From: Sphaerodactylus townsendi
Lineage: Eukaryota
NCBI RefSeq assembly: GCF_021028975.2
Contig: NC_059432.1
Span: 63,736,001 to 63,800,000, forward strand
Direction: 5' to 3'
Length of the DNA stretch: 64,000 nt
Under the pieces are notes generated by a model that did not search any database, was not told where the DNA came from, and saw only the letters and a program-made list of their open reading frames with translations. Positions 13,051 to 64,000 of this stretch are shown piece by piece. Numbering within the stretch: position 1 is the first letter of the stretch; every line of letters begins with the position of its first letter. Made by a program: the position numbers and the translations under genes.

Positions 13051-13169
13051 CAGGGGTCTACAACCTGCGGCTCTCCAGATGTTCATGGACTACAATTGGC
13101 CATGCTGGCAGGGGCTGATGGGATTTGTAGTCCATGAACATCTGGAGAGTCACAGGTTGCAGGCCCCTG
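13051..13169. mobile_element. Hairpin hAT-type MITE with 8-bp TSD
   Basis: Long TIRs CAGGGGTCTACAACCTG...CAGGTTGCAGGCCCCTG; TSD TTCTAGGG at 13043-13050 and 13170-13177. Confidence 0.9.
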
Positions 13170-28981: not shown

Positions 28982-29346
28982 TCACCAGTCCCTCTCGTGT
29001 GGTTTCCGGTAAGGCAGTCCCAAATGCACGAACACGTCCTTCTCAGTGAGAGTAGGCAGAATAACGCCAGGCGCTACTTTGAGGCCACCAGGTCCTCGCA
29101 CCACGCCACGGCTGAGGCCGTGCTCAGACAGACTCATGCCCCTCGTCTTGGCCAGGGCCCGCATGGAGCGGTTGAAGTGGGCCGATCCTGTGAAGTACAG
29201 CAGGGCACAAGCAAACTCACTGTAGGGCACCACAATGATGTCAAGACGTCGGTGGCAACGGCCTGGGCCTGGAAGACGGCAGACTCCCAGGTACTTCTTC
29301 TGGTTGCCATTGTCCTCTTGACTCACCAAGTCATCTGTGAGAAACC
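28982..29346 (-). CDS. POLL: Pol lambda last exon (D490, YFTGS, thumb) with TGA stop
   Basis: FLTDDLVS...[31 protein letters not shown]...[13 protein letters not shown]; the total CDS sums to 1728 nt = 575 aa. Confidence 0.97.
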
Positions 29347-30141
29347 CTAAGAAGAAAGGCATGAATCACAGAGGAGATTACCGGTTGCCTGGATGACGAC
29401 AAAGAGCTATAACCCTTCTCTACAAGTAAACTTGTGCCAGGGTTCCTTGCTTGCTAGCACTAGTACTGGGCTTTGCCTGACCAGAGTCATTTCTGACATG
29501 ATCCTGGGAGATACAATGTCATGACGGTTCATGGTGTCCTACATGGCACCCAAAACTACACTGTCAGAGTTACTAGCATCCTTGTCCCTTTGGGGACCTC
29601 TCTAGGCCAATACCTAGGAGATGGGCAATTTTTAAATGACTAGATGGAGAGACAGCTCAGTTGCCTATGTGGTCTCAGCACAGAGAGACAAGGAAGCTAA
29701 CCAAGTCATTTTCTGGTCACAGTGGGTCTCATGTTAATAGAATGATAGAGACGAAAAACAGATGACACTGAACATCCCTAAACAGAAAAATTCCCAAAAA
29801 GGAATAAAATATACTATTAAAATTATGGCAAACCATATAAAGCTGCTCTGTATATGATCATATAGCACTTCATCGTGAACTGCCATACCAATAGCTACAT
29901 ATCTGTTCCAGCTGCCTACAAAAGGGGGAAAAAGGTCTCTCCACCTAATGAAATGTCAGTACTGTTCATTACTGTAGCAGCACTACAATTAGTGATCAGA
30001 ACAACTCAACACGGCAGCACCAATGGCAGATCTGGATTCGTATCCTTGCTATTTCAAAGGGACTCTTGGGTACAGGAGAATGTGGCAGCACATCCCAATT
30101 CTTCTAACCATTTTACAGCCCGAGCAGATATCTCCCCGTAC

Positions 30142-30310
30142 CAGTTCTCCGGAGACTGTCAAGCAGCTTGTTGAATACTCCTTGATGAGAGTGCCCATCT
30201 GGGTGGGTCACTAACACATCCACATCGCCACAGGTGGGCTTGCCCCGTCGGAATGAGCCACAGGCCATGCACACCAGTCCAGGCACGACAGACTGGGCAG
30301 TTTCTCTGAC
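30142..30310 (-). CDS. POLL: Pol lambda exon 8, catalytic palm (D427, D429)
   Basis: Read by hand because the ORF track shows another frame: [56 protein letters not shown]; PolX GS.RRG...GDxD motif; 169 nt; GAG acceptor, G|GTACG donor. Confidence 0.95.
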
Positions 30311-32329
30311 CTCCAGGAAAATAAGAGAGATTAGAGGATTTACCAGGACACATTTCTACTTATTCAGCTTCATTACTGTTCAGTACTGGTGGTCCTGCCT
30401 TGTCCAATCTCAAGATAGTGGTCTACAGGACACAGCACAAGACTCTGGAAAATAGCTTCCGCAGTCACAGAAAAAGTTTACACCCTGGAAGCAGCCTACT
30501 TAGGATTCAGCTATCTGGCCTTCCAGGCAAGCAACAACAATAATTTGTGCCACCATAATCCAAATCCCATGGCAAGAAAGCTGAATTCATGCATACATTA
30601 TTCAAATCCATTAAAAGTATACTTAATTTCTTATTCTGAATCATTTATTTTACTTTTGCAAGACATGGGGTAAGGCTGAGACACTGCCCCAGATCTTTGC
30701 TCCTGGACCACAGAAAACTCTGTTGAGTCTCACTCTGATTTCAAGGTAGTCACCACAATTTTCCCCAAAGCTCACAAGGATATCTTCAAAACTGTAAGGG
30801 ATATACCTCAATTTTCCTTTCAAAACAAAAAATTTCAGTATGCTGAAACCTCGGAATCAAAAAACTCTTCAACTATGTTATTTTCCTGTCTTGCAGCCCG
30901 ATATCAAAAGTCCTTCCAAATAAGGTATGTTATCCTGGCTCAGTGGTATAGCGCCAAGGGGATGGGTGGCATGACACACCGGGCACGCGCCCCTGTGGAA
31001 ACAAGGAAGGGGCATTTCGGGGCAGGGGCGTGGCAGGGGCGCAGGGTGCACACGTACCCCAGGCGCAATTCCCCCTCGCTCCGCCCCTGTCCTGGCTGTA
31101 TAGCTGAACAAGCAAATTCCAACGTGTTCTGCCAAAATTATAACAAGCAGTCATAGAAGAAACAGGTGAACAAGAGACAAGAAGAATTTTGCAGCTGTTA
31201 TTACACAGGATAAGAAAACAAGAGCAGAAGCAAGATGTGTGTGGTATAGGGATCACACCTCAGTTTCAAAGTCACCTAGGCAGGCCAAAATGACAACCTG
31301 GATGACTTTGACCCTATCTTTCTGCAGGGCTTTTCAGCAGCCCTGCCAATGGGAAGTTCTAGAGCTTCAGAGCAGTGGACACCATCTAGAGCAGGCAAAG
31401 TGCTGGCACTCTCAAGCTTTGCGCTCCTAACAGAGGGGCCACCATCACCACCACGTCCAGTAGATTCCCTTTATCGACACAGCTCTGATGGCTTCATCAA
31501 GGAGACATTGGAAGGTGATCTCAGTACACAGGATTATGGGTATTAGGATGCCAATCACACCAGCAGCTGCCAATCATCCATCTTATTAAACAGAGACATG
31601 ATTGCCAGTTCAGAACATAGCAGATAAAATGGGGGGTTGGGGGGGAGATGCCAAGTGCCCCTTGTCGGTGTCCAGGATCATCCTTCATTAGTGAGGGATA
31701 AACCCATTAACCTTCGCCCCACGACATTTGGAATAGCCTCATGGCTTTTCTAATGCAGATATCTTCCCTCTGCCTGCTTTACATCATCAATGAGGTTTTC
31801 TTGAAAGCAAGCCAGCCACCACACTGGTGCATCCCACCACCTTGGAACTCCACAGACAGCAGCTAATCCTCTCATTCACTCCTCTCTGAGGGGGAGGGGG
31901 GGATAAAGAGATAGGTAATCCCATCAAACCCACAATAGGTCAATTCCCAAGGGCCAAAGCTCTCCAAAGAAATTTAATCCTGGGCAATGCCCAGCCTGGC
32001 AACTACGTATTCTTCAGGAGCAAGCACTGTGACTGAATGACAGGATCATGCTGCCCAGCACTGCCATGGTAATTCTGGTAGACAGGTGGAGCAAAGGGGA
32101 AAGCCCCCTGTGGTCTAGGTCCAAAGCTTGCATCTTCATTTTATTTATTTATTATTAGATTTATTTAGTGCCCTTCCCTGGAAGGCCCAGGGTGGTTTAC
32201 AACAGTCTTGCAGTGCAAACATCTTTATTATTCGCCAAAACGTCTTCTATGAGGCCAGGGCTCAATCCCAGCTGAATCCTCAAAGAGAAGGAAAAGGGAC
32301 AGTGCTTGCAAAACCTATACTCTCCGACC

Positions 32330-32820
32330 TGAACAAAAGAGCATAAATATAGCCAGCTACATCAGACCAGTGGTCTATCCAGTCCAGCGTCATGTTTTGT
32401 GCAATGGCCAACCAGCTGTCCTGCGGGGTCAACAGACAGAGCCTTCCTCTGAGGCTGGGTCCCAGCACTGGTTTGCTCCTTTTACTCACCATGATTAGCA
32501 GCAATTGGAAAACATCTTCTAGATGGTACTGTCTTTTTAAAACGATCGATGCTTTTGGCCATCAGTACTTCCACGGGCAGGGAACCCCAGTTTAATTGTT
32601 CATTGGATACAGATGCTTTTGCCTGCCCTGAACCTACTTCCCCAGCACTCAGTGGTGCCCCTGAGTCCTAGTATTACAGCCCATTGATGAGATTCACTAC
32701 AGGAATTCACAAGATGCTCCTGAGGTACTGCCTTCCCATGAGGCCCTCTGTGTCTGGTTTTAAACAGGAAGAACTTATCTACGTGCTCAGTCATCTCATT
32801 TAAACTGTCCTATGGTGTGT
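32330..32820 (-). mobile_element. Old CR1 3'-end fragment
   Basis: ATCAGACCAGTGGTCTATCCAGTCCAGC closely matches the reverse complement of the CR1 3' region at 10921-10947. Confidence 0.5.
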
Positions 32821-33919
32821 GCACCATTAGCAAGCCAGTATGCCATGACTGCCCACTTTATGGACCTCGGTGGTGCTAAAGATGCTCACAAAACATCTGG
32901 GAGTCCAGGGTGGACAAAATGCTGAACGTGTGAAAGATCATATAGGTAACATCTCACTTGCCAGAATCATGTTTAAACTACATCTGAAAATCCCTTAATA
33001 GGGCGTAACAAGTCAAGGGTTTACGAAGACTGGGGGAAGAGCTGCTAGTTTACCACCGCAAGATTAGGAAAGGGAAACATGGCTGAAATAAAGCAAGTTT
33101 TGGGCTAGTTCAAAAGAATGTTACAAGTCTGCATAGAAAAGAATGCTGAAAGTCATTAGCTGAGAGGAAGAAGAAGAAGAGGGCGTAGCTTTCTCCTTTC
33201 GTCTAACAGGAAATTTAGCCATAAGGAACTTCACTTTAACTACTGCCCATGTAAAAACACTAAGCTGCAGGATCCAGCATGTTCCAACAGTTGTCGTTCC
33301 TGACGAATGCTGCCATAGTGGCTTCCGTAGGGAAATGATCTCTTGTAGTCACTATGAAACTGGGGGCTCATGGAGATCTTAGTTCCTCTTGTTCACTCTC
33401 GTAACATTAGGAAATTATCCTGCCTTGGTAAGAATTATCCTGCCTTTGGTAAAGAGTAGAGGTTCCAGGCTTAGAGGCAGAGTACCCTGCAGCAGTGAGG
33501 GCAATACCTAACAGCCAGGATGATTAGGTGCAAGACAAGAATTGGTCCAAGCCCTATGCCAAATACTCAAGCTCCTATTTCAAGAAGCTGGCCTGATCCA
33601 TCCTTTCCATTTCACACAGCCTCTATGCCTCCAAAGGTACAGAGCAGATGTGCACACACCCACTGCCCAAAGCTGTTCGAGAACAGAAATGCAGGCCAAA
33701 CAGGCAAACAATTTCCATGCAAAAGTCATCCCGTCACTTAAAAAACCCAGAAGACAGTTTTTTTGGGGGGTTTACCAAACTGGAAAGTAGAAGACATTAG
33801 GAAAGTTAATGTCTCCAAGTCATCAACATAAAGATATATGTGAATCAAGCCCCACTCAACAATGACAATATGATCACGTGATCCTGTTCAAAGTCGTCCT
33901 ATGCAAAAGAGGTACTCAC

Positions 33920-34048
33920 AGTCTGCTCAATTTCTGCAGCTTCTTCCCGTGTCATGCGTCCCAAAAAGTCATTGTAGTGCTTCAAGCCAATGGCTTGTTG
34001 GCTAGTGAGAGAGGCCTTCGTGCGAATGTCATCCAGACTGCGAAAACC
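33920..34048 (-). CDS. POLL: Pol lambda exon 7
   Basis: [43 protein letters not shown]; CAG acceptor, GTGAGT donor; 129 nt. Confidence 0.96.
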
Positions 34049-35310
34049 CTGCCCAAAGAACATGGGACATTCAGACAAAGGAAGCATGCCTATAATAATT
34101 CCTCCTCCACAAGATGCTGTTTGCTTCTATATAGACCTGAGCATTGCCTTGTAAGGCTGGGAGTAAGGAATCATAACAGCCTTCCTTATTTCATCACCAT
34201 ATCTTCAGTGCACTGTTTACAGGCCACTTATAGCCCTGACAGAGGTCTGTGAGTTACTCCCCATCTTTGAGACACTGTCAAACTAAGGCAATACCAACAA
34301 CTAATAAAAGCCAACAAAAAATGGAGACAGTGTTCCTAGGGAAGAAAGGCAAAAAAATTAATCACACAGTTCTGCAATATTTAGGAGACTCAACAGTGAC
34401 ACAATGTCGCTACCGATTGCAAAGAAATAAAGACTGATGCGAATAAGGACCAAGTATCCCCACATGAACTTACCCAACAATTATCGGTCATGTTACCAAA
34501 ACTTTTACCTCCCTCCACAGGGAGATTCATCTCTCTCTCTTTGTCATGGTCTTCTGCTAGTGGGTGTTTTGTTTGGCATTCCCCCACTAACTGTTAATGG
34601 CTCTTTCCCTAGTTGTGGTGTTATGTGCATTTATGTTTTATTGAGTTGTTTAAATGTTTTATACATACTCGCATTCTAAACGTTGTTTCAATTTTGATGT
34701 TTGTTGCCCTGGGGACCCTATTTAGGTGAAAAAAACATCATGGAACTGTTTTTAATACATAAGTAAATGTTGATGTTGTAACATTATCATGGATGGTTCA
34801 TTATTACTGTTTCTGATCATAAATCCCACTACAAATCCCAGCCCAACTTTGCAAATACATCATGCAGCAGATTTTCTTAAAAGGAATTTGTTTTGAGCAC
34901 TCTAAGACTTCCCAGCCTCACCTCACTTTCAATCTGAATGATAGCAAAGATGGACACGAGGAAGATTTGTGGCTTAATCCACTAAACTGCAAATCTCCAC
35001 TCTTCCTAGCAAGACAACCATCACAGGTAAAATGCCAATTCCCATACAGTTCCTAGAAGAGGCCTAACCTTGGTCCCAAAATATGGGTAACAAGTATATG
35101 ACAGGCAAACAACATGTTGTGTTTATGTGCAGATGGTCAGGGACCTCTGACAGGGCCTGCTCCCTTTAAGTATGTTTGTATGTTTTAAGGGGACTTTTAA
35201 CCCTATTATACAAGTTGCCCTGAGACTTTGGCGTAGGCCAAGGTATAAATAAATAAATAAAACAAGTGAAAAAACTGTAGTAGTGCCTGTTATTGTTGAG
35301 AGAAAATTAC

Positions 35311-35484
35311 CCACTGGTACCAAAGCTGAGCCGTCTTGACTCCTGCTCCCCAGATGTTGGAAAATATTTCCAGTACTGACACGCTCTCATTTATGTGATC
35401 CAGCTTGCGTAAGTGCCCACTTTCCAGAATCTCCACGATCTTCTCTGCCATCTGCTTCCCAATCCCAGGGATCTGACAGGCTTC
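35311..35484 (-). CDS. POLL: Pol lambda exon 6, dRP-lyase HhH region
   Basis: [28 protein letters not shown]...[18 protein letters not shown]; lyase Lys at reconstructed position 312; canonical AG/GT; 174 nt. Confidence 0.96.
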
Positions 35485-36980
35485 CTGGAAAACAAAAAAA
35501 TGTTGTCCAGAAGGAAGGCTGAAATCCTGATCCACGAGAAAAATCTAACTTGTTTTTAGCTTATTAAGTTTCAGTTTCCAAATAAGCGAGTCCTTTACAG
35601 GTGCTGCTGTGTCCCCAGGCCCCTACAGGAGCCTTGTTCCTGAATGGGCATTTAGAGATCACAGAACCCACACAGGTAAAATGCACTTGTTTTATTCCCC
35701 CTCTGGCAATAGACCTTTTATCTTCCCAGTAAAGCCGTCTCAAGGCTTCTCTGTATTTTTTTGGTAGTTGGGGTGCGGGTAAAATTCCAGCAGTTTTAAT
35801 TTTAAAACCGTAGGATATGGCATAGCACAAAATTGTTTCTCAGGGAGAAGTAAAGGTCTGGAAAAAAAATCAGGAAAAGCCTGTTTTTGCCTAGGGACAA
35901 ATTTTCAGTTCTTCCCAAGGAAAATTTGAAATTCTGTGTGGAATACTAAGAGCGCCGAAGGGGGGGGGGGGGCGGACACGACGACATCCTGCCTGTCATG
36001 TTTCTGCAGACGCACCTTTGTGCTTCTATCAGGGGTTGTCCCCAGACTGACATGGATTAAGGAACAGACTAACACTGGCCACAGCCCACCATCCGCCCAT
36101 GACAGCAGTGCAGAGTCCTGAGGATGAATTGCGCTAGTATGCAGCTACTGCGGAATTGCACTGGCACCTGAGAGCAGCTCAGTGGCCCTGGGGTCCTGCA
36201 CTGGGGCACGTGCTCCTTCAGGTGGCATATTTCTGAGATATGCCAATATAAAGGTCAGTCTGCTCCCTAAGCCCCTTTACACACACCCCTTAGGATTGCA
36301 CTGTGAGGATTTTTTTGTTCAAATTGTACCTTTTTCTGCTTATTACAAAATCTGTGATTTCTATTTTCAACTTTCAGTTTTTCCTGCCTCTCAGATGACA
36401 AAAACTAAGGTACATGTGCTAAGGTAGCATGGTATGCAGCACTGTGCAGCTCCCCCTTTTCAGCAGCGGGTATATCAGCAATTTTGGTTGCACAAAATTA
36501 AGGCATTTGTACTTTTAAAGTTCATAAACGTGCCAAATACTACTTTTATATTTTAACTAGGTTATATTTTGCATATTTTATAGCAGTAAAATAAATATAG
36601 ATTTGAAAAAATACTTCATATATTCCAATTTTTCTTCACCACTCCATTTTCCCCCAGAAAGCAAAAACATTTCCAATGACTGCAAAACATTCAACATTTT
36701 TATATTTCAACAGACAAAGCAGTAACTGACCAGCAGCGGTGAGCAACCGGGGGCAGGCCATATGCTTCTTTACTCTTGCAGTGTAACATAACTCCTAGCC
36801 CGTTGCTACAAATGCAAAGTGCAACTTGGATATACTCATGTGATGCAGGACAGAAAGAAGCCAGCTACGCCACAAACTCAGCGGCTACTCCTTTTGTACT
36901 GCACAACAATAGCAAATGAAAGAAAAGTAGAATTCTACATGAAAAAAAAATCATTTAGCCCTTGCTCTTATCCCAGTTAC

Positions 36981-37289
36981 CTGGTAGGAAGAGACTGGCT
37001 TGGGGTAGCTCTTGAGTGCATTAATGGCTTTGGAGTAACCCAGAGCTCGCCATTTGTCCCCCTGGACTGAGTAGGCTTTTGCCAGTGCCTCCAGCTTCTC
37101 TGTAATGCATTGATTCTGATTAGTCTTCTTATGTTCAGAAGACTGAGCACAAACCCACTTGCCAGAGGGAAGTCCTACTGAAGAGTCTCCAGAAGAAACC
37201 TTCAGGTCTCGGCCTGACCTCAATGCCTCCAGCTCTCCTTGAGTGATGTCAGGGTCTTCCCCCTCACTTCCCTCATCAACGGAGGCCCT
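36981..37289 (-). CDS. POLL: Pol lambda exon 5, linker and start of the 8-kDa lyase domain
   Basis: KWVCAQSS...[42 protein letters not shown]; AAG acceptor; donor CAG|GTAAC; 309 nt. Confidence 0.93.
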
Positions 37290-38324
37290 CTTTAGAGAGA
37301 CACAACACAGAAAGCAATTAAAAACGGTCATTGCAATCGGCTCACAATGCTCAAAGGTGGAGGAAACTAAAGGATAGGAAGTGTTCGGTCCTAAAAGAGC
37401 CATACCAATACTTAGGTACAACCACAGGGAAAGGCAATTAACATCAGCCAAGCTAACATGTGCACATTCCCATTTTCTTCCCTCAATTATAACAAGCATT
37501 TTCATGAATAATAAGCTGCTTTAAGCAGGTTTGTGGAGAGGCAGCACATATAAATGTTCAAAATAAATAAATAAAGCAGGGAAACACAACTGGCCCTTGG
37601 CTGTGGCTGCTGTTAGTTAATGAAGTTGAGCACGCACATGAAAATTCATGAGGCATGATGTTCCAGCTAGCAGTGGCAACCACAGAAGAAGCCTCCATCT
37701 TCTGCATCCTGCAGCCACTAGAGGGCAACAACATTCCATAGTGAACAAACAGGCTATCCCATTAGCAAGGGAACGTAAAGGATGCAATAGTAGTTAGGAA
37801 GCCAAGGGAGACCATACTCCTTAAGGTCTAGTCCAAATGGTTTACACTTTAGTTATGTAGCAGTTATATACCACAATCATATGAGTCTATTAACTGATTT
37901 TAATGTTGTATTAAAATCAGCAAAATTAATATATAGGTCTCTTAGACCATAATGGAAAGAGACTGATATTAGGTTGTTAAGAGGACTGCCTCAGTAGACT
38001 GACAAACCCAAACAACAGGCCATGCATCTTAAGCACAAAAACAGCTTGCTAAATATTCCTTAGACAATTTCCTATAATCCTTGAAATTTAGGTAGACACA
38101 ACCAAGCTTGACAAAGATCCACACCCAGAATAATTCATATGATGGGCTTTCAGGGGAAGGCCCACCAAAAAGTTACCAGGGTAAGATCCACCTTCTACAA
38201 GGACACCCAGAGCTCATTTCAATCATCCCATTCAGAAGAAAAAAAGTGCCTGTGTCTGTCCAGTAAATCAGTTGAGTTTGTAATCATCAGACCCAAGCTC
38301 TGAGAGCATCCCCTTACTCTAGCT

Positions 38325-38507
38325 TAGTGGTTCTCAGCCTTCCTAATGTCGTGACCCTTTAATATAGGTCCTCATGTTGTGGTGACCCCCAACCCTGACA
38401 TTTATCCATTTTACAGATGGAGAACACTGATGCAGAGAGTCCTAGGCGACCCCTGTGAAAGGGTCATTCGACCCCCAAAGGGGTCGTGACCCACAGGTTG
38501 AGAACTG
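38325..38507 (-). mobile_element. SPIN/URR1-like non-autonomous hAT element in POLL intron 4
   Basis: Termini resemble SPIN/URR1 (GGTTCTCAACCTGTGGGTC.CGACCCCTTTGGGGGTCGAA...); 8-bp TSD CTCTAGCT at 38317-38324 and 38508-38515. Confidence 0.8.
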
Positions 38508-38625
38508 CTCTAGCTGCTCTAGCTGAAGCCTGACGTTGGTTTATTAGGAAATCTTTGGCCTAACCTATAAAAATATTTCAAAACACAAATGTTGGATGGC
38601 CACTGACTAGCGTATAAAGGCCTAC

Positions 38626-38794
38626 CCTTTCAGCTCCCCACTGTCCTGTGGAATTGGCTGCACTGCAAGAAGAGGTGAGCTCCGTCTGTGGTTCAGCCTT
38701 TAGTTCCAGGACTGCACAAACCATTTGGGGCTGGATCTTCTCCTCATCCAGAACCTGTGGTTGCCTCTTCGAAAGGTCTGCCACATCCAGATAC
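38626..38794 (-). CDS. POLL: Pol lambda exon 4, linker region
   Basis: Acceptor TTCCTGGCAG|G and donor AGG|GTAGG; 169 nt converts phase 2 to phase 0 and keeps the frame; RYLDVADL...GAER. Confidence 0.85.
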
Positions 38795-39375
38795 CTGCCA
38801 GGAAACAATATACAGCATAACTCAGTCACTGGATCCGAAGACATCCAAAGGCCCAGGAAAGCAGAAAAATAGGGAGTTTGTGCACTATCTATGTGGCTGG
38901 ATGTCAACCCCTGCATGCTGCTAGCAATGCTAACCCACCCTAGCTTCCTTTATGCATACAGCGCTGTCAATGCACCAAAACTGTAACATACAGCCATCTG
39001 AAAGTTTATGAACTTTTCATTATTGTGGGTTCTGCCTTGCAATAACCCAAGTTATGGTTTCTTCTTATGAATCTGACACACTGTTCGCTGCAAGTAAAAA
39101 ATATATTCAATTGCAGATATGATTGAATAACGTAACTATATTTCACTGACCCATTAGATTTTGGATAAAAGTATCATCATAGATGATGGCATTGTATTTT
39201 ATACATCTGTTTTTGGAGGGTTTTTCAGGCACCAAACTTTTTCACAAATGACACAAAAGCAAAACAACTCCTGTCAGTGAGGCACAAGACAACTTTGTTC
39301 CGTGCATTCCCAAGAGAAGAATTCAATTTCTATTTACAACTTGGAAAGGAGAAGGTATACAGGAAGGACTCCTAC

Positions 39376-39673
39376 CTGTCTGGGATGAAGAGACTATAGC
39401 CAGTCGTGCTCAACATCTTCTGCTCAGCAACACATGAACTCAGCCAGGAAGCCTTCACCAGTTGCAGTCCGGGAGGTAACTTGGCTAGTTTGAGGAGTCG
39501 GAAGGCCCTGTCGCAATCCATGCCTTCATCTAATATAACATGAGTTACATCTGATGAAAGATGGCTGCAAACATGACCCCCATTATGAACGATCTGCTTG
39601 CGGAAGATCTCAGCCCTGGCCTGGCCCATTCCTGCTTGCACTACATATGCTGTGACAGGCTCCAACCACCCTG
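39376..39673 (-). CDS. POLL: Pol lambda exon 3, BRCT domain
   Basis: WLEPVTAYVVQAGMGQARAEIFRKQIVHNGG...VTHVILDEGMD...LVKASWLSSCV; CAGCAG acceptor (start 39673 or 39670); donor AG|GTAGG. Confidence 0.95.
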
Positions 39674-39959
39674 CTGAGGAAAGCCAGAGAGAAAAAGACT
39701 TATTGAAGAAAAGACTGTTTTCATGCCTTGTGTGAATCTGGCAGTTTGAATCCATAATCAACATATATATACAGGAGCCAATATATAGGAGGCTAACTGC
39801 ACTTTGGGCCATAACCAATATGTTAGTGCCCTCTTCAGATGTTAAGTAGCTTCTTCCAAAGCGAATTATTTGTCCACATTAATCTATGACACAGCAGGGG
39901 CAGGTTCTCACATAACGTAAGCTCCAGGCCAAAGCAGGACAAGAAAACAGAGGACTTAC

Positions 39960-40074
39960 AATTAACATTTCTGATTTCTTCTCCTTTCAAGACTTTTGCA
40001 GGGCCTGCCTTCTGTGAACCATCTGTGATTTTCTTCCGTTTAGGGAAAGCTTTGACAATTCCTTGAAGCTCCAT
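39960..40074 (-). CDS. POLL: DNA polymerase lambda, first coding exon (exon 2; the exon starts at 40116 including 5'UTR)
   Basis: ATG at 40074; MELQGIVKAFPKRKKI resembles the Pol lambda N-terminus/NLS; donor T|GTAAGT at 39959; 115 nt, phase 1. Confidence 0.93.
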
Positions 40075-41024
40075 AAGCACGGATCTCTCTCTCCCAAAGC
40101 AGAGTAAGCAGGCTCACTGGGGAAAATCATTAAGTTTGGTTACTAAGATTATATATGTATGCTAAAGGAATTTTCATCGCTGAAAATCCAGTCACTTTGT
40201 GACTCATGACTACAAGTCTATCATAAAGCACTATTGGCAGCTTAAAAGTCAGAAGTAGAAAATAATTAATTGGAAGGCTACAGCATGTCTACATGAATGG
40301 GATAACTTCATACTGCAATGGTCTCAGTTTACGATCAACTCCAAAGGCAAACAACCAGCCAGCAGAATGGGTAACTGCTGCAAATCCAGTTCAGCCAAGT
40401 GTTTAGAGGGTGCTACATACATTCTGCAGCAGATTAAAATCTTTTTTTTTTTTTTTGGGGGGGGGGGGGGGCTCCAATCTGAGATCCAACACATTAAGCT
40501 TAAAATGTAGTAGATCCAAAGATCAGTTGGTATGATTCTTCATTTTTCATTTACATTAACAGGGGTGTTATCATAGGAAAATGGGGTTTGATGTCATTGA
40601 ACATTCCAACAACAATGGTGGCTGAAAAGAAGAAGAAAAATAAATTAACCCTACATCACCAATACTCAGTGACTCAGGAACCACATATGGCTCTTTGGCA
40701 TGCCATCTGCAGCTCTTCTGAGCACCATTCCTCAATGATGCATCAGTCCCATGTTCCAGGAAAGGGAGAAGGTCATTGCCCTGTAGAAGGCAAGTGATCC
40801 TCACTTTCAAACAGGGACTGGAAGATGGCTAAACTGTGAGCAAACTGGTCACCAGGGCTTGTGAAGATATTACTCCCTTTTCTCCTCTGGGCACACTGGC
40901 AATCTCACTCTGCCTTGACTTGCTCAGTGCTTCATGCTGGGAACAAGAAGCCAGAGAGGAAAGCCCTTCTCTTCACTCCAGATACAGATGTAATCTGTAA
41001 TTTAAATGGCTAGAGTTATATACA

Positions 41025-41225
41025 TCTATTTATTTACTTTATTTCTATCCCGCCTTTCTCCCCAATGAGCTTACATCATTCTCTTCGCCTTCATTTTATC
41101 CCCAATACAACTCTGTAAGGTAGGTTAGGGTGAGAGAGTGTGACTGGCCCAAGGTCACCCAGCAAGCTTCCATGGCAGTGGGGATTTGAAGCTGGATTTC
41201 CCAATAGTTTAACCACTATATCATG
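41025..41225 (-). mobile_element. Squamate tRNA-derived SINE in POLL intron 1
   Basis: Same family as 16720-16950. Confidence 0.7.
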
Positions 41226-42499
41226 GTGGCTTGTTTGCCCTCTCTCTCTCTCTCTAATATATATATTAGAATGGCACAGTCGAATGGCCGAATGGCACAG
41301 TCACAACAGTTTTCACATACACCGTAGTTCTGTGTAGGACAAAGTACAGCAGCCCTAAGTGCAAACTTTCTGAAATGTGTGCTATCTGCCTCTTAACAAC
41401 AGAACTGGCCAGAATTGCATTTTCATAAAGGGAAGAAGGACCTGGTAAACAATGGTGTGCCAGAGGGAACTTTCTGTAAAAGTGATGAAGTGATACTGTG
41501 GCCACTTAAATTAGGTGCAAAAATCTTAGCTCTTCCCCTCCATTTTCATGTTGCATTGTTCATTAGATGTATTATACCATCTTTAACTCATTGTTTTGTG
41601 AAATCCACTGGATCTGTGATTTATGTGATTTCTGGAATTCAGGCTCTTGTATGTATTATACCATTTTTTCCATTGTTCTTTAACTGTGTAAGCCAATATT
41701 ATTGCATTATTCACCGAATGTCTTTTCCGTCTCATCGTTCTTGTAAGGCGCTGGGCTCCTAATACCAGAGCCTCTGACCTGGAAGCCTTCTCCCTACTCC
41801 CAGGTCTTGGTTGTGCGAGGGCAGACTCAGAGAAACTGGTTGGTAGCACCATAGGCCTGGTTTACACACTCAGGACCGGATGGGATAGCAGAATGCACTG
41901 CACCACTTCAAACTGCAGGTGGAGAATCACGTTTTGATTTGTTCCTCTACAAACCTCTTTGCAAACAACAAAATCAAAGCAGCAAGCGGAAGGGGTGTGT
42001 GTGTGTGCGTTAATCTGCCCCTTGCTCGGCATTTTTTAATGCAAAGAAACATTCAAAGCTAGAATTCACCAGTCCGAAACGTATGTGTTTTAAGGGCTAA
42101 CGCTTCTAATTTACGGCGACCCCATAAATGTACGACCTTCAAAACCGTATCGACAAACAGCCTTGCTCAGGTCTTGCAAACGAAGGCTTCCTTTACTGAG
42201 ACAGCCCCAAATAACTGTTATCCTTTCTTCCATCCCGTTCATTCTCCTGCGCGCGTGGCTCAATCCCTGGTTCTTTTCAGCCAGTTTCCCAGCCAATGCC
42301 ACGCCGTGGGCCTGCTTTCGGGGAAAGGACCAACTGACCATTGTGAGCATTGCAGAGAAGCCGGGAGGAGACTCCTGCACCACCACAGTGCCTCTGCCAG
42401 CCGTTGCAACAAGAGAGTAGGGAACCGCTGAAACACCCAAGGAGGGAAACCTGCACGATAAGAGCCCGCAGGAACCCAGTCTCATTGTCTCTCACTTAC

Positions 42500-42560
42500 C
42501 GAGGGAGGGATGGGGGAGAGGAAGAGTTGGCGTCCGGCATTCTCTTCCGGGCGAGGTCAA
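42500..42560 (-). other. POLL: Probable non-coding exon 1 of POLL (3' boundary 42500; TSS and 5' end uncertain)
   Basis: Strong minus-strand donor TCG|GTAAGTGAG at 42499 inside the CpG-rich promoter; matching acceptor TTTTCCCCAG before 40116. Confidence 0.65.
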
Positions 42561-42611
42561 AGGGAGCGGAAGTGGAGGCAGGTTTCCCTGGAGATGCTTC
42601 CCTCTGCGGTA
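42500..42611. promoter_or_regulatory. Bidirectional CpG-rich POLL/DPCD promoter
   Basis: CpG-rich about 42100-42850; oppositely oriented ETS/GABP-type motifs CTTCCGG (42544-42550) and GCGGAAGTG (42566-42574); no TATA box seen. Confidence 0.75.
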
Positions 42612-42674
42612 TGGCTGAGGCCAACTGGTTGGCGCAGTTGCGCTCGGCGCGCAAGACCGCCTTACTCGGGGACG
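42611..42674 (+). CDS. DPCD: DPCD exon 1
   Basis: GGTATGG Kozak context; MAEANWLAQLRSARKTALLGD resembles the DPCD N-terminus; donor G|GTAAT; 64 nt. Confidence 0.93.
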
Positions 42675-43021
42675 GTAATTGGGATCGGGACCTGCAGGAG
42701 TAGACCCTGCAAAGGGGGCGGGGAGGGCTTTCCTGGGACAGCGAAAAGCCGGTCACCAAGAGTGTGCGGGTAACGGGGGAGGCGGCTGCCCTTGCAAATA
42801 GAGGAGGCGTCGATGTGTGAGGAGGGGGCAGTGCAGCCGCCCTGATTTTGCACCCTCAACTTGGAATCCTACCTTGTGCTTACCTGGAACCAAGATCCGT
42901 TGAACACATGGGGCTGATTGTGGTGGGTTTTCCGGGCTGTGTGGCCGTGGTCTGGTGGATCTTGTTCCTAACATGGGACTGACTTCTGCAGAAGCCTATT
43001 GGGCTTCCTTGGAAGACATAA

Positions 43022-49230: not shown

Positions 49231-49305
49231 ATTGGCCATGCTGGCAGGGGCTGATGGGAATTGTAATCCATGAACATCTGGAGAGCCATAGGTTGCAGAC
49301 CCCTG
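49231..49305. mobile_element. Half copy of the same hAT MITE family
   Basis: Near-identical to the right part of the 13051-13169 element. Confidence 0.85.
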
Positions 49306-50050
49306 ATCTATAGCATGAGGCCTGCAGCTCAGGGGAACTCAAAGCTGATGGATTTTCCAGCATGCTTCTGTTTCAAAACAGAGAACCATGTGCTAATTAT
49401 AAGCCCCATCAAGCAATGGCCTTGCCCACTTTCCAGGAACGTGTGGTGGGTGCCACATAGGAGAGCCATACTCAAAAGAGCAACTGGTGGCTGCTGAGCC
49501 AGTGAATGAGCATCAATGCTGTAGGAGGAAATACTTTATTAGTGGATAAGCAGTTCAAACAATGTGATCATAGACATCAATACAACCCCACCACCAGCCA
49601 TATATGAATTTTGAACTGGAAGGTTCATCAGAACAGATTTCTTGCGTTCTTTTAACAATCTATTCAGTACAGTGAGCTGACAGCATAATTTTAATGAAGT
49701 ACTCCTTGTATGTACTCAGACATCAATGATTAAATCTGGTACAATTCATCTAGCTATGGCTTCAAGCCTACAGCCCTATGGTTATTTAAGGGGAAGGGAT
49801 GTATGTGAGTAAAGCAGCAGGAAATAGCTATTTCACAGTCTTCGGCGCTTTAATGTCCAGGTTAAGCACTTTCCTGCCAATGTAAATCCAGCATGAGATT
49901 TGACCCCTGTAGGTCTGAACTTAAAGCCAGCAGAAGCCCATACTGGATACACAGAAACCAGCATGCATATCTCCAAACAAGTTTTCATTAGAAATTCCTT
50001 TAAAAACACAAAAGATGTACAAAATAAGAAGCTGGAAAGAGACATTAGCC

Positions 50051-51414: not shown

Positions 51415-51555
51415 CTTGTGCTTGTCCTTAAATCCCAGTACCGAATGTAGGTATCATACCCGCAAGTAAGCAAAGTGAAAGGCGTTTCATAAAAAATATC
51501 CAAGACTCCAGCACCTCGGTGGAAGTCTGTTCCAAGGCATGTGACCAGCTGTCCA
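51415..51555 (-). CDS. FBXW4: FBXW4 third-last exon (WD40); upstream exons were not found in the window
   Basis: GQLVTCLGTDFHRGAGVLDIFYETPFTLLTCGYDTYIRYWDLRTST; CAG acceptor, GTTAGT donor; 141 nt, phase 2-2. Confidence 0.94.
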
Positions 51556-56697: not shown

Positions 56698-59600
56698 TAC
56701 CTTTAATTGCCTATATACTAGTCAATTAATGGGTAAGAAGAGCTTGTCTAGGACTGCTCTTCCACATCCTGTGCCTGGGCAACTAAGCCGTGCAGGCTCA
56801 TGATAAAAGAGGGCACTTCTGTCACAAATTCTTAAGAGCTGTGAATTTTACAAGAACTTGGAGGAATGGAGTCCAGTTACTTCAAACCTTTACGCTTTCT
56901 AGCCCTCTTCTATATGCGTTTTCACTCAAAGAAGCAATTGTATGATGGCTGTCCTGGGAAAATACGGTTAACGATCCATTTGTGTGTGTCACATTTCAGT
57001 GGGAATGCATGTGGTGAATGGAGGTATGCAAACAGCTCACCGTTGACGTTCAGTTCTCAATGCATGTAATCATGGCAAAAGATTGCAAAATGCCAGCACG
57101 TCTATCATACACAAAAGCATGCATCTTTTTTGCTTCATGGAAACTCTAAAAAAGTATAATGTCAAACAGTTCTTACAGTCGCTGTAGAGGTAGAAAAACA
57201 AAGCAGTCACCAAACTAACTGGCAAGTACTAGAAGGGAACAACACATTCAGACAGAAGAAATGAACATGGGTCATGGACAGGCTTGGCAGCATTTGTGGC
57301 AGCAGCTGCTAGGCATTTGGACGGGCTGCTGGATATCACAGTCAGCCAGGAGTGCAAGTAGAGGGGATGAACCAAAATGAATGACAAGATTGTTGATTGG
57401 GAACAATGGAAGATGCTGGAATACCTACTGGATGTACTGGGAGCCAAGAATGCCAAATGACTTCCATGGACACCGTGAAAATACATTGCTAAACACAAAA
57501 GTAGTGCAGAATGGTCTCTGGGCACAGAGAGATGGCACAAGGACTGGAATAACAGCAGCAAGAGTGGAGACATGATCGTTCCAGTACCAAAACACTTCTG
57601 CTCCACTGAGGACACTATTGAGGGATCTATTGGCAGTGCTACATGCCCCCACATCTGAGCCAACAACTGTGGCCCCCTCTCTTGCTCCGCTGCTGGTGGC
57701 GATGGGGGTGGGAGGTTGGGCAGCTGAGGGCGTTTTCAGCAGCATGGCTGGGGTGTCAGGAGGAGCCCCATAGGTGAGTGGCACTCTCTTCCACAACTCC
57801 CCACGCCCCTTCTGAGGTGAGGTGACCCTTTGCCTTATGTGGGTCAAGGGCCTGCTTGAGGTCCCCATGGGAGACCTCTGCTGTCTGCAGACTTGTAGCA
57901 GGACTCAGTCCCTTTAAGGGTGGAGGGTATGTGTGCTGCAGGCACATAGCCAGCATCCTTACCCATGCTCCTTTCCAGACCTGGGTGTGATGAGCATTAT
58001 GTTTACAATCCTGCCAGATTCTGGTTGCCCTGTCCACCATGGCCCAGCCATTGCAACACATCTGGATGGGATGCTAGAGCACAGTTGCTGGGGATGCTGA
58101 TGTGGTTGAAGCCACAAAAACCCAACTACATATTTTTGCCTGCTCACTAACTCCTTAAGGAGCAGACTTGTGGCATCACAGACAAGCCACCAGCCAGCCA
58201 TTAAGACTGAATTGTCCATCTGACTACTGCACAGTATTGATGCTGTCGCCGTGGTTTCTTCATCCACTTGCTGGAGCTGCTGCTGCCTACTACAACCCGA
58301 TTCGCTTTAATATTTTTGACTCATTGAACATTGGTGATACTGACTCTTTCAATTTACTGGAACGCAATATGAATGTTACAGGTTTCTTGCCTTATGTACA
58401 ATGTTTATGAGAATTTGTTACTAAGTACTGTCCCATTACGCTTCTTAGGTTGCCTAAGTGCCCTCATTGTAATTTATGTTATTACATTTATATCCAGTTG
58501 CATATTACTTATAATATAATCACAATATATCTTTATGAATGGTGTATGACTTATCTATTGACTTTATACTCGAATTAATTGCATATACCAATTAGTTCAT
58601 TGCCTTGTGTTACTATATATACAGTCCATGCTTCTTAGGCTTGGCTGGCCTCAGATTTTCTAGTATTGGTTTGACTGTATATATTTGCTGATCTGTTCAG
58701 TATTGATGACGTACAGGAGGTTTAGATTATCCTAATATCATAACTTATCACCATACAACTCAGTTCTCTTGGTTAATCAAATGGATATCACTGAAAGAGA
58801 ATTCTTTAGCCCATAATGAACAAATGTATGATAAAGTTCAATCAATTGTCTGGATTTTTATGGCTTCACCCCCTAACTGTGCTTCACCTCCTTTGTCATC
58901 ATGACAGAAGTAGAAGATTTTTTATATTCTTGTTTTATATTTCTCAAGGGTGAAGATTTTTTTTATATTCTTGTTCCTCAAACTTTCAAGCAGGAGGAGG
59001 AAGAGGAAGAAGAAGTGGAAGAAGAGTTTGGATATGTTGTAACTCCAATTATTCTGTTTAAAAATAAATTATTTTGGTCTTAAGATAGCTTAAAGCTTTA
59101 AAGACCACTTTAGATGTCAACAGAGAACTGATAAGCAAACTGTTCCAACAATCAGAATTTAATTCATGGCCTTTTAAAACAAAAAGAAAGAAAACCACCA
59201 AATTTAGAAACAGTGATGCCCCAAAATATTAAATAAAAGTTAAACTGGGATTCCCAGGATTCCAACAAAAGACTGTATGCATAACCACCTACAGCCATAT
59301 TTCTCTGATCTCCTAGGGAAATCTCTCCACCTTGATACGTTCCAGTACGTTGGGGGGGTGGGGGGAGTGCACCAGAGGAACACAACTCATACGCACAAAT
59401 GAACCTCCACAATCAGTGATAAAAAGTTGTGTTTTTATTTGAGGAAACTGGCTTTCAGAATGAGCAAGCAGTCTATTTCTTTGATGAACTCTCTTTATTA
59501 ATAAACTCTTACCTGTGAATCAGCAAGTATTTCTCGGCCATTTACAAATGAACCAGTGTGAAAAGCACTCTGGGGTGTAAGAATAACTAGCTGTCTGTGA

Positions 59601-61134
59601 CCAGCTTTTTTAAAAAGAAAAGTTAACTCTGGACACTACCTTGCCTCTCACACTCCCTGCGGCAGCTGGAGGCATGTGTGTGCCTTCGGTTTCAGCAGGG
59701 GTGGCAATGATAGTGGCAGCAGCGGGGACCGAGAAAGCTTTCCCCTCTTTTCTTCTGGTGACTCTGAATTGGCCCACACACACTTTAAAGGGTCCAATAA
59801 AGAGATACAATTTCTTTTACCTTTCCTGGCTCTGGGACCCTGGACGTTTTTTGTTGTCCGGGTTGTCATAAGGTTAAGTTCAGAGGATAAACTGACATGC
59901 TAGCTATGGGAAAAAGCCAGTTTCCTCAAATAAAGCCACAACGGTGCAAAAGAGACCCCTCTGGGGCTTTTATTTGGGAAAACAAACAGAAATGGCACCA
60001 AGCCCTTCTGCTTTACGGGCCAATTTAACTATCAAACTAACTCTCTCCCTTCCAGAGGCAAAGAGGGGAGAGAGACACAGCAATATGACAATAGTAAGAA
60101 ACATTCAGGGGAGAAACAGACAAAGCAAGCTGTCTGTCTCCTTGTCTTTCTTGTCCAGAGTTCTTTTTCTGAGCACACGTGTGTTCTTGTAAAAACGATT
60201 AGATTGCAATTTGTATAACATGGTGACCCCCAAATTCAGACGTTTAACCCCTTTTCTCTGCAAAGAATGTGAAGAATGTCTCGAAGGTGGGGGAAATTCT
60301 CTCAGATTGGGAGGGGGCAGCATGAAGAACCACGGGGAGTTGTGTGGGAATAAGCCACTGTATAGCTTCTTTTTGAACAGGCAGCACTTTGGAGGTCTCC
60401 TTCGGCTGGCAGACAACAAAAAAAGGAAAGAAAAAGAAAAATGGAGATTCGAAATCAAAACAAAGCCATCTGTTTAAATGAGCCAGCCCAAACTAAAGGT
60501 GGGGGGCATTGGGGTGTTTATGTATTCCCACATTTAAGCAATCTTATTCTTTACAGTTTGTCAATTCTTTTGCAGCCTAAGGGGGAGACTGTCTTGGATT
60601 TATGAGAACAAAACTGATTGGAGCCGAGAATTCTGACTACCGATACTGGAAGTTTCTGTTATAAGTATTGCAAAGATGCTGTGAAGAAATGCATATAAGG
60701 GCCAGAATTTGAGGCAAAAGTAGATGTTGCTTCCTTACCTGTACATCAGAACCTTTCAAGGTTGCAAGGAAAGGCTAAAGTAGCTCAGTCCACATTTAAC
60801 TCGTTAAAATTAAGGTTCCAAGCAATTTACTTCCAAATTTCAGATGAAAGTGACAAAGACTAAGGCACTGAGAAGTAGTGTGGTCCAGTGAATAGAATAT
60901 TGGACTGAGACCAGGAGGCCTAGGTTTGAATCCCTGCTTGATCCATGAAGCAAACAGAATAATCACACATCATCAGCTGTGTTTACCTGAAAGGCGATCT
61001 ATCCATGCCTCACAGTTATAAAGAAAGCCTTCAAGTCAAGGCTCAGAGATGCCAAAAGAGGACATTAGGCAGAGTTTCTAATAGTCAAGGAACAGGGCTT
61101 GTACGTGTTACAATTCTTAATTCACCACCATCAT

Positions 61135-61360
61135 CAGCATGGTGTGGTGGTTAAGGGCAGTGGGACTCTAATATGATTCTCCAGGTTGGATTCCCCTCTC
61201 CTCCACATGAAGTCTGCTGGGTGACTTTGAGCTGAGTAGGTGCCCCACCTCAACCCCACCTACCTCACAAGGAGCCTGTTGCTGGAGGCAGAAAAAGAGG
61301 CAATTGTAAGTTGCTTTGAGATTTCTTACGGTAGAGAAAGGCAAGGTATAAAAACCAATT
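61135..61360 (+). mobile_element. Squamate tRNA-derived SINE
   Basis: Same head and body as the 22163 copy. Confidence 0.7.
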
Positions 61361-61969
61361 ATGCTTCTTATTTCCTCTGACCACTACTATCAATTAATCC
61401 TTCTATATTCCTTCCTTTCAATGTTCTCAGATCTTGTCAAACATTTCTAAATACACTGGCCATATAATCCCAAATAAGCTTGCAAAAACAGGCATTTAAG
61501 CACATGTGCACAGTTTGTTTTAAGAATATAATTAATTTCTGGGGGCAAAGAGAGATTAGGCATGTATTATATCAAGTCTTGGACATCAATACTGGTGATT
61601 AGTATTGGTGATGCCTATATGATTATTACTGACGGAGTTGACTTAACTCTACTTAAGTCTACTTAACTAATGCATTTATACAATGTTCTCAGAATGTAAA
61701 AATGGTACCAACTTTTGATTCATCAACCTCTACAAAATTTGTTCAACAAAATAACACACTTTGTAAAAACGCTTGAGAACCCTCTTAATGGGATTCAGAT
61801 TACCGCTGAATACAACAGCCCCACAAATCAAAACTTTTATTGTCTTTTATCTTTAAAATGTATTGTTTGAAATTCAACCCCTCTGAAGAACGTGTGTGTC
61901 AATGCCTCTAAAGAACTGTAGTCCATATTTAAGAGGGAATATTAATTTTGAATAATACTATTCTAAACT

Positions 61970-62790
61970 ATTCACCCACTGGCAGAAGATGGCAACAAAA
62001 GGGGACAGGGGAGTTGTCCTGGGGAGAGAGTTCCAGAGTTTGGGTATCATAACGAAGAAGGCCTTCTCAGGGTTACCACCCTCCTGATCCGCGAAGGAGA
62101 GGGCATCTGAAGTAATGCTTGGAATATAACCATGGTGATCAGGGAGTAGGTAGTCTTTCATGTACGTTTGTTCCAAACCACATAGAGCTGTAAAGGTTAA
62201 CACCAAGACTTTATGCTTGCGAGCCAGTATAGATGGGCCAAAACTCCAGTCAGCATCCTGACTGCAGTATTCTGTACCCATTAAAATTTCTGAATGAGGA
62301 AGCCCCATTGCAGTAATCTAAATATAACCAGGGCATGCATCACAGTGGCCAAACATTTCCTCCCAGGAAAGGCTGTAACTGGCTTACCAGTCAAAGCTGC
62401 TAAAAGATGCTCCTGGCCCTCAGCTGCCATCTGCTTATCTCCCAACAGGCTTAGACCCAAGAACACCCTCAGACTACAAACTTTTTCTTTCAAGGGAAGT
62501 ACAATCCCATCTAGAATGGGTCACTTCTTAAATCTTGGCTCAAAAGGATCAGAACTTCTGCTAACTGGTAGTATTTCTGTCTTGTTGGTATTAAGCTCCA
62601 GTGTATTCACCTATATCTAATCCAAAACTGCTTCCAAACACTGGTTCTTGATTTCTACAGCCTCTCTGACATCAACTGGAAGCATAAGACAGAGCATATT
62701 GGTAGCAACCCAGCCCAAATATGTCTGACCACTGGTTTCATGTAGACATAACACAGCACAGGAGACAAGATGGAACCTAGCAAGACCCAT
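61970..62790 (-). mobile_element. L2-type LINE fragment
   Basis: KVLVLTFTALCGL...AFFVMIPKLWNSLP. Confidence 0.7.
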
Positions 62791-63520: not shown

Positions 63521-63819
63521 ATACTAATTTTAGTATTTTGGATTATTAATTAAAGTTGATTTTTTTGTGTTTTTCTAGTGTTGTTACACACCTTCGGTCC
63601 TCGCAGTATTGAGAGAAAGGTGGTATATATAACTATTTCAAATAAATAAAATATTATGTGTGCATTTAAATATCTCATGAATTTGCAGTTTTTTGTACCT
63701 GTACTGCTCAAACGCAGTACATAACATATACACAAAAAGCCATCTTGAATGTCTCCCTGTAGCTTTATTCAGTGCACACCTGCATGTACTCAAAGCATGC
63801 ACACGTGTACACACCTTTG

Positions 63820-64000
63820 CACTGGGAGTGAGTGGTGTAGATGTAAAAAGAGTGTGCATGCACACTGGGAGTGTGTAGATGTAAAAAGGACCTGCCCTAA
63901 GAATCTGAAGGACGAAAAATAGTCAAGGAACAGGAAACGCAAATGGATGAGAAATACAGGTCTGTGGCACTGGGAGTGAGTGGTGTAGATGTAAAAAGAG
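63820..64000. repeat. Three copies of an approximately 33-bp unit, running off the window edge
   Basis: GCACTGGGAGTGAGTGGTGTAGATGTAAAAAGAG at 63820 and 63967, with a shortened copy at about 63863. Confidence 0.85.

What the first reader, a model, noticed from the sequence alone, without database searches (positions are those of the whole stretch)
59426..59983. Long-range RNA duplex candidate enclosing a putative poison exon in an FBXW4 intron, with a competing third arm
Seen: 59426-59455 and 59913-59942 are reverse complements at 28/30 nt, including a perfect 22-bp core (TTTATTTGAGGAAACTGGCTTT), and weaker complementarity continues about 35 nt inward. Between them, on the FBXW4 (minus) strand, is a 57-nt segment (59569-59513) with acceptor TTATTCTTACACCCCAG and strong donor CAG|GTAAGA. 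The host intron is phase 2, so inclusion reads xVLFTLVHL then TAA (59544-59542). That is a premature stop with later exon junctions well downstream, so the transcript would be NMD-competent. A third degenerate copy (59965-59983) is transcribed first and can pair locally with the 59913-59942 arm (about 17 bp with one G-U, one mismatch and one bulge on the minus strand). Inference: mutually exclusive pairings could loop out or expose a poison exon and tune FBXW4 dosage. Alternatives are the TIRs of an ancient palindromic repeat, or a repeated TF site in an enhancer.
Basis: partly seen in the sequence, partly recalled or inferred. Interest (0 to 1): 0.7.

Follow-up and report, generated by a model that had tools for sequence, protein, structure and literature searches.

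The report
RNA clamp over cryptic FBXW4 exons
A single-copy pair of complementary 30-base stretches in an intron of a lizard's FBXW4 gene is predicted to fold back as RNA and likely hides a stop-containing candidate exon that has look-alikes in a snake and a bird gene model, but neither splicing nor conservation of the paired stretches could be shown.

Summary
The inverted repeat is real (28/30, 22 perfect pairs, -42 kcal/mol), single-copy in G000 and not a multi-copy transposon end. It lies in FBXW4 intron 6 (21 kb), among the introns that carry Fgf8 enhancers in mouse; it is not the CE59 ortholog. New here: the 5' arm covers the predicted branch point and pyrimidine tract of a second candidate exon (A, 59903/59899-59821, 83/79 nt, stop-containing). 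A cobra and a swallow gene model both contain this segment joined to exon 7. Best reading (0.40): a BRD2/BRD3-like duplex that masks exon A and loops out exon B. Rivals: enhancer with an old inverted duplicate (0.30); neutral or lineage-specific duplicate (0.22). The three-arm switch is not favoured: folding keeps the long duplex, and both pairings cover the same bases. No reads could be laid, so junctions, editing and arm conservation remain untested. The scan noted similar intronic duplexes in other genes, none at this locus.

The parts
59913..59942 (-). 5' arm (transcribed first). Holds a candidate branch point (CUUUAUU, A at 59931) and the start of the pyrimidine tract of candidate exon A
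   Evidence: positions -30..-1 of exon A have mean unpaired probability 0.20; branch point inferred from a recalled consensus
59426..59455 (-). 3' arm, reverse complement of the 5' arm, 58 nt after the exon B donor
   Evidence: 28/30, duplex -42.0 kcal/mol; core pair probabilities 0.98-1.0
59868..59912 (-). Weak inward extension of the stem, predicted to pair with 59456-59500; covers both AG acceptors of exon A
   Evidence: p 0.007-0.04 for 40-50 nt windows, not significant for 30 nt
59821..59903 (-). Candidate exon A: acceptor TTTTTCCCATAG (59903) or CTAG (59899), donor AAG|GTAAAA; 83 or 79 nt; after exon 6 reads S* or SMSVYPLNLTL*
   Evidence: segment 59896-59823 matched by cobra model P0023 (E 2e-9) and 59896-59849 by swallow model P0070 (E 6e-6), both followed by exon 7
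59513..59569 (-).
   Evidence: no protein or read support
59965..59983 (-). Third, degenerate copy of the arm core; can form a local hairpin with the 5' arm but is absent from the predicted equilibrium fold
51415..51555 (-). FBXW4 exon 7 (downstream exon). Exon 6 lies outside the window at L004:8821-8886, so the host intron 6 is about 21.3 kb

Best explanation
The two arms are single-copy reverse complements in FBXW4 intron 6 and are predicted to pair in the pre-mRNA, likely hiding the 3' splice site of a stop-containing candidate exon (A) and looping out a second one (B). Shown: the complementarity, uniqueness, gene structure, the splice-site-like sequences and the in-frame stops. Shown only at amino-acid level: exon A sequence in a snake and a bird gene model. 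Inferred: the branch point sits in the 5' arm; the duplex forms once the 3' arm is made about 460 nt later; the local third-copy hairpin would cover the same bases in the meantime; opening the duplex would allow inclusion and nonsense-mediated decay, as shown for BRD2 exon 3b and BRD3 exon 5b. The default job would be to keep cryptic exons in a conserved element silent, with dosage control as a possible further use.
For: Duplex -42.0 kcal/mol, z -4.3 for the region, stronger than the tested BRD2 (-29.1) and BRD3 (-34.3) pairs (PMC10789245). The 22-mer occurs at only these 2 places with up to 1 mismatch; region and exon A 25-mer are single-copy. Complementarity is concentrated in 30 nt and weak inward, unlike an old inverted pair elsewhere in G000 that is 83% identical over 105 nt with a longest run of 19. 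The 5' arm ends 9 nt before an acceptor AG. 2 of 277 FBXW4-like proteins match intron 5/6 DNA at E below 1e-5; both match exon A, start within 8 nt of its predicted acceptors and run into exon 7 at its donor, in different frames, which argues against coding constraint. A donor as strong as exon B's occurs 2 times in about 51 kb of sense intron, about a 2% chance for a 457-nt loop. [quoted passage not shown]
Against: No junction read, editing site or orthologous arm sequence was seen. No strand signature: the duplex is -42.0 on the transcribed strand and -41.4 on the other, 4 G-U pairs on each in the long stem, and the non-transcribed strand folds better overall (-186.9 vs -174.1). The two gene models are predictions and contain other non-canonical segments; they show sequence conservation, not splicing, and cover neither arm. 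Exon A's donor is middling (4.2 bits; 27 sense and 22 antisense sites score 4.5 or more in about 51 kb; weights recalled). The strong-donor count is the same on the antisense strand (2 vs 2). Human PCCRs overlap branch points 20% less than expected. The two annotated isoforms in P0002's cluster include neither exon. Mouse Fbxw4 introns are known for Fgf8 enhancers, which explain conservation without any RNA role.
Confidence: 0.4

Rival explanations
1. The element is a conserved DNA enhancer of the Fgf8 landscape (CE58-like or unnamed). The arms and third copy are an old inverted duplicate of a transcription-factor site cluster, and the splice-like sites are by-products.
For: CE58, CE59, CE61 and CE66 lie in Fbxw4 introns and drive Fgf8 in the limb ridge; CE58 and CE59 reach back to gar and bowfin. 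The CE59 edge maps about 4.4 kb away, and this element lies on the side where CE58 is expected. Three copies of one motif; no strand asymmetry. Four small 7-9 Mb DNA runs from three studies hold the stretch at share 0.37, which suggests, by inference, a targeted conserved locus.
Against: Factor binding alone rarely keeps 22 of 22 bases identical between copies (own knowledge). The six CE58 oligos could not be placed. CE58 has a CTCF site and no match to a recalled CTCF consensus with up to 2 mismatches was found in the scanned part of the element (a short stretch around the third copy was not scanned). Not exclusive of the best explanation.
Confidence: 0.3
2. The 3' arm is a neutral leftover: a lineage-specific templated inverted copy, or the decayed end of an ancient low-copy hairpin repeat, beside a conserved element. 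Pairing is incidental.
For: Perfect inverted repeats are common here (36 in 284 kb), and a decayed low-copy pair elsewhere keeps a 19-bp perfect run. Cross-species evidence covers only the loop near the 5' arm. Ancient low-frequency repeats such as Eulor and UCON are hard to classify (PMC5753468 passages) and would escape the genome searches used.
Against: No family: 48 hits at up to 3 mismatches against 75 expected by a Markov model; of 10 such loci fetched, 1 had an inverted partner and it belongs to an unrelated family; no target-site duplication. Identity drops sharply at the arm edges.
Confidence: 0.22
3. One reading: the third copy and the 3' arm compete for the 5' arm, and this switch sets inclusion of exon B.
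For: The third copy is made first and can form 17 pairs; exon B has a rare strong donor; competing structures control ATE1 (PMC7797038, search listing only).
Against: MFE and centroid keep the long duplex. The third copy leaves the 3' part of the 5' arm free as a toehold for displacement (read). No protein support for exon B.
Confidence: 0.08

Closest known systems
BRD2 exon 3b / BRD3 exon 5b: conserved complementary regions controlling poison exons (Petrova 2024, PMC10789245; abstract and first part of Results read)
   Same: Stable intronic duplex enclosing a short cryptic stop-inducing exon (BRD3 5b is 82 nt; exon A is 83/79 nt).
   Different: There conservation, inclusion and compensatory rescue were shown; here none. 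Here one arm is itself the 3' splice region, the duplex is stronger, two candidate exons lie inside, and the host intron is enhancer territory for another gene.
PCCR catalog of human introns (Kalmykova 2021, PMC8052449; passages and 5 supplementary files searched)
   Same: At least 10 nt, below -15 kcal/mol, under 10 kb apart, in one gene; overlaps a cryptic acceptor.
   Different: Median PCCR is 13 nt and -17.2 kcal/mol; this is 30 nt and -42. FBXW4 was not found in the held supplementary files, which may not include the full catalog.
Fgf8 limb enhancers CE58/CE59 in Fbxw4 introns (PMC7815712 passages and supplement 1 part 2; PMC10020157 passages)
   Same: Conserved non-coding DNA in an Fbxw4 intron, within a few kb of the CE59 ortholog.
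   Different: Not CE59 by oligo mapping; CE58 identity unresolved; no inverted repeat or exon is mentioned in the passages seen.
MITEs / ancient low-copy repeats (Eulor, UCON; PMC5753468 passages)
   Same: Terminal complementary arms around about 460 nt of unique sequence.
   Different: No second copy, no target-site duplication, no excess of arm matches.

Membership tests
PCCR-controlled poison exon (BRD2/BRD3 type) | Stable complementary pair (10 nt or more, below -15 kcal/mol, within 10 kb, same gene) | tested here: met
   30 nt, -42.0 kcal/mol, 457 nt apart in intron 6
PCCR-controlled poison exon (BRD2/BRD3 type) | Both arms evolutionarily conserved, with compensatory changes | tested here: inconclusive
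   No orthologous arm sequence obtained; metagenome hits were chance 20-25-mers; an open frame over the 3' arm gave 3 hits, long proteins with several matched stretches that look repetitive; only word shares of 0.37-0.71 in 5 other organism labels
PCCR-controlled poison exon (BRD2/BRD3 type) | Enclosed segment with AG/GT sites whose inclusion creates a premature stop over 50 nt before a later junction | tested here: met
   All five candidate forms stop 170-528 nt before the exon 7/8 junction
PCCR-controlled poison exon (BRD2/BRD3 type) | Exon actually included in RNA, more so when NMD is blocked | tested here: inconclusive
   No reads could be laid; two gene models contain exon A, none exon B
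PCCR-controlled poison exon (BRD2/BRD3 type) | Inclusion rises when pairing is broken and is rescued by compensatory mutation | not testable with these tools
   needs minigene or antisense assay
Multi-copy MITE / DNA transposon | Dispersed copies of the terminal repeat and interior | tested here: not met
Multi-copy MITE / DNA transposon | Target-site duplication | tested here: not met
   flanks AAAAA / GGTGC
Ancient low-copy repeat (Eulor/UCON) | Match to a Dfam/Repbase consensus | not testable with these tools
   no repeat library available
Fgf8 enhancer CE59 | Orthologous position and sequence | tested here: not met
   primer 1F, guide 1 and primer 1R map collinearly at L004:254-370, about 4.4 kb away; primer 1F alone also resembles 60168-60190; the other three CE59 oligos were not placed
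Fgf8 enhancer CE58 | Orthologous position, CTCF site, limb-ridge activity | tested here: inconclusive
   0 of 6 oligos placed convincingly; no CTCF-like match in the scanned part; activity untestable
Rfam structured RNA | Match above gathering threshold | tested here: not met
   4 matches in 58000-62000, all E above 2

The most novel reading that the evidence does not exclude
A dual-use element kept across lizards, snakes and birds: as DNA it serves as an enhancer in the Fgf8 landscape, and as RNA its own inverted arms clamp the branch point of a poison exon in the host gene FBXW4, so that one conserved sequence is read by two codes and point variants could hit limb patterning and FBXW4 splicing together.
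Probability: 0.12. Interest if true: 0.72.

Novelty: new member of a known kind. Interest (0 to 1): 0.4.

Why it matters
Conserved DNA in FBXW4 introns is read as Fgf8 enhancers in the split-hand/foot locus papers seen here. If one element also needs RNA pairing, it would give a testable reason for extreme conservation and a second way for non-coding variants here to act (one intron 6 variant in a radial-ray patient is cited in PMC5003447; its position relative to this element is unknown). If the arms are lineage-specific, it is an ordinary inverted repeat.

Tried and rejected
Laying RNA and DNA runs gave no data, so junctions, A-to-I editing and cross-species letters are open. Metagenome scan with the 20-mer: 4 loci, 0 of 4 homologous beyond the word. 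Protein searches with open frames over exon B (no candidate) and over the 3' arm (3 repetitive-looking hits): blanks that say nothing about conservation. L026 (G000:C1, 28.399 Mb) shares a 19-nt word and has its own inverted repeat 448 nt wide, but the core faces the other way, it is a 105-nt 83% pair with a third relative, and its profile does not recognise this element: treated as coincidence. A resemblance of the core to the MIR/CORE-SINE motif is recalled only; a profile of 10 local SINE-like copies gave no hit. 30 of the 41 exact 14-mer sites were fetched; none resembles the element outside the word. Recursive splice site at 59512 (CAG|GTAAGA): weak pyrimidine tract (2.6 bits), short intron; not pursued. 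Literature: no paper holds FBXW4 with 'poison exon'; none of the listed papers mentions FBXW4; one search gave 4 papers, 2 read as passages, neither about this element; arm words found in no full text. Marinic 2013 and the radial-ray CNE study (PMID 22995989) are not held; supplements of PMC10573301 could not be read; picture-only files in PMC8423624 and PMC10020157 were not searched. These may hold CE58 coordinates or FBXW4 PCCRs.

Full report
Observation. The arms 59426-59455 and 59913-59942 are reverse complements at 28 of 30 positions with a 22-bp perfect core. None of 100 Markov-resampled 9.8-kb sequences held a perfect inverted repeat longer than 15 bp within 1 kb. The inward extension is weak: p 0.04 against shuffles and 0.007-0.014 against intron windows for 40-50 nt, not significant for 30 nt. 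The transcribed strand of 59400-60000 folds at -192.6 kcal/mol, z -4.3 against 20 shuffles, with the long stem in both MFE and centroid. The 57-nt segment, its sites and its stop are as described. As a base rate, 36 perfect inverted repeats of 18 bp or more lie in 284 kb of fetched DNA, most from one young MITE-like family, so an inverted repeat alone is not unusual in this genome.

Setting. The exon at 51555 matches P0002, which its source names as a gecko FBXW4, at 100%. Mapping P0001 and P0002 on the window plus 160 kb of adjacent G000 DNA gives nine exons on the minus strand; the element lies in intron 6, between exon 6 (L004:8886-8821) and exon 7 (51555-51415), phase 2. In mouse, Fbxw4 introns hold the Fgf8 limb enhancers CE58, CE59, CE61 and CE66 (PMC7815712 and PMC10020157, passages). 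Three of six CE59 oligos from the PMC7815712 supplement map collinearly about 4.4 kb from the element; the six CE58 oligos could not be placed. So this is not CE59 and may or may not be CE58.

Not a transposon family. The 641-nt region has one match in G000. The 22-mer with up to one mismatch occurs only at the two arms. With three mismatches there are 48 hits against 75 expected from a Markov model; the tool's reversed control (15 hits) is low because it contains a CpG (22.5 expected). A 25-mer from the loop is unique at three mismatches. There is no target-site duplication. One of ten fetched near-matches has its own inverted partner but belongs to an unrelated low-copy pair. These searches would miss a very old, highly diverged family.

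A second candidate exon. Of 277 FBXW4-like proteins collected, two match intron 5/6 DNA at E below 1e-5, and both match this element: cobra model P0023 at 59895-59823 (E 2e-9) and swallow model P0070 at 59896-59849 (E 6e-6), each followed by exon 7. The window has acceptors at 59903 and 59899 and a donor AAG|GTAAAA at 59821 that bracket these matches. This exon A is 83 or 79 nt and, after exon 6, stops at once or after 11 codons. The models use different frames and differ from the window by indels, which argues against protein constraint; they are predictions and do not show splicing. The 5' arm ends 9 nt before the first AG and holds a branch-like CUUUAUU 27-31 nt upstream of the acceptors (recalled consensus). 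In the fold, positions -30 to -1 of exon A are unpaired with mean probability 0.20, against 0.61 for the exon B acceptor region. Exon B has the better donor (7.5 bits; 2 such sites in about 51 kb on each strand; weights recalled), but 0 of 232 proteins carrying exon 6 continue into it, weak evidence since decay isoforms are seldom listed as proteins.

Conservation. Runs of five other organism labels hold 37-71% of the sampled 31-mers of 59300-60200; four are DNA runs of only 7-9 Mb from three studies, which suggests a captured conserved locus (inference). Which part is shared is unknown, and close relatives would give similar shares. No reads could be laid. A metagenome scan and two protein-level searches gave no orthologous arm. 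Conservation of the pairing itself, the key test, is therefore open.

Mechanism. Most likely (0.40) the arms pair in the pre-mRNA, mask exon A's branch point, pyrimidine tract and acceptors, and loop out exon B; the third copy would cover the same bases until the far arm is made. This works like the BRD2 and BRD3 structures, where breaking the pair raised poison-exon inclusion (PMC10789245, Results part 1), and fits the enrichment of human PCCRs on cryptic sites, though PCCRs avoid branch points by 20% (PMC8052449, passages). Against it, there is no strand asymmetry (-42.0 vs -41.4 kcal/mol). An enhancer with an old inverted duplicate (0.30) and a neutral or lineage-specific copy (0.22) remain; the three-arm switch on exon B is least favoured (0.08).

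Novelty. It works like a PCCR around a poison exon; membership is unproven because arm conservation and inclusion are untested. No report of this element was found in the searches made (supplements), with Marinic 2013, PMID 22995989 and some supplements unavailable. Interest 0.40; 0.72 if the element proves to act as both Fgf8 enhancer and RNA clamp (probability 0.12).

Noticed in passing
L004:8821-8886 (FBXW4 exon 6, just outside the window): The 66-nt exon 6 is skipped in frame in annotated isoforms from many lizards, turtles, birds and amphibians (for example P0002, P0034, P0050, P0059), removing 22 residues inside the WD40 region; a recurring alternative event next to the studied intron.
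   Followed up: partly
L004:254-370: Likely ortholog of one edge of mouse Fgf8 enhancer CE59: primer 1F, guide 1 and primer 1R map collinearly.
   Followed up: partly
L064:1586-2091 (G000:C1 28,399,254-28,399,759): Old inverted pair, 105 nt at 83%, with a third relative at C1 158.17 Mb; an unnamed low-copy repeat.
   Followed up: partly
window 13071-13149, 49231-49310 and many sites in L004-L019: Abundant young hairpin-shaped MITE-like repeat of about 80-150 nt, making up most perfect inverted repeats in the region.
   Followed up: no
window 55211 and 62424 (minus strand): Two-mismatch matches to a recalled CTCF consensus in intron 6; mouse CE58 carries a CTCF site, so 55211 is a lead for the CE58 ortholog.
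   Followed up: no
window 63819-64000 and L004:1-116: A 150-nt near-perfect tandem duplication (99%) spanning the window end.
   Followed up: no
window 2880-3072: Cluster of short nested inverted repeats (20-22 bp perfect arms).
   Followed up: no
window 7921-9740: Broken LINE-like endonuclease/reverse-transcriptase reading frames, named from recalled similarity.
   Followed up: no
window 28982-42700 (minus) and from about 43000 (plus): Exon-like frames that look like POLL and DPCD, recognised from recall, giving the POLL-DPCD-FBXW4 order of the split-hand/foot locus.
   Followed up: no
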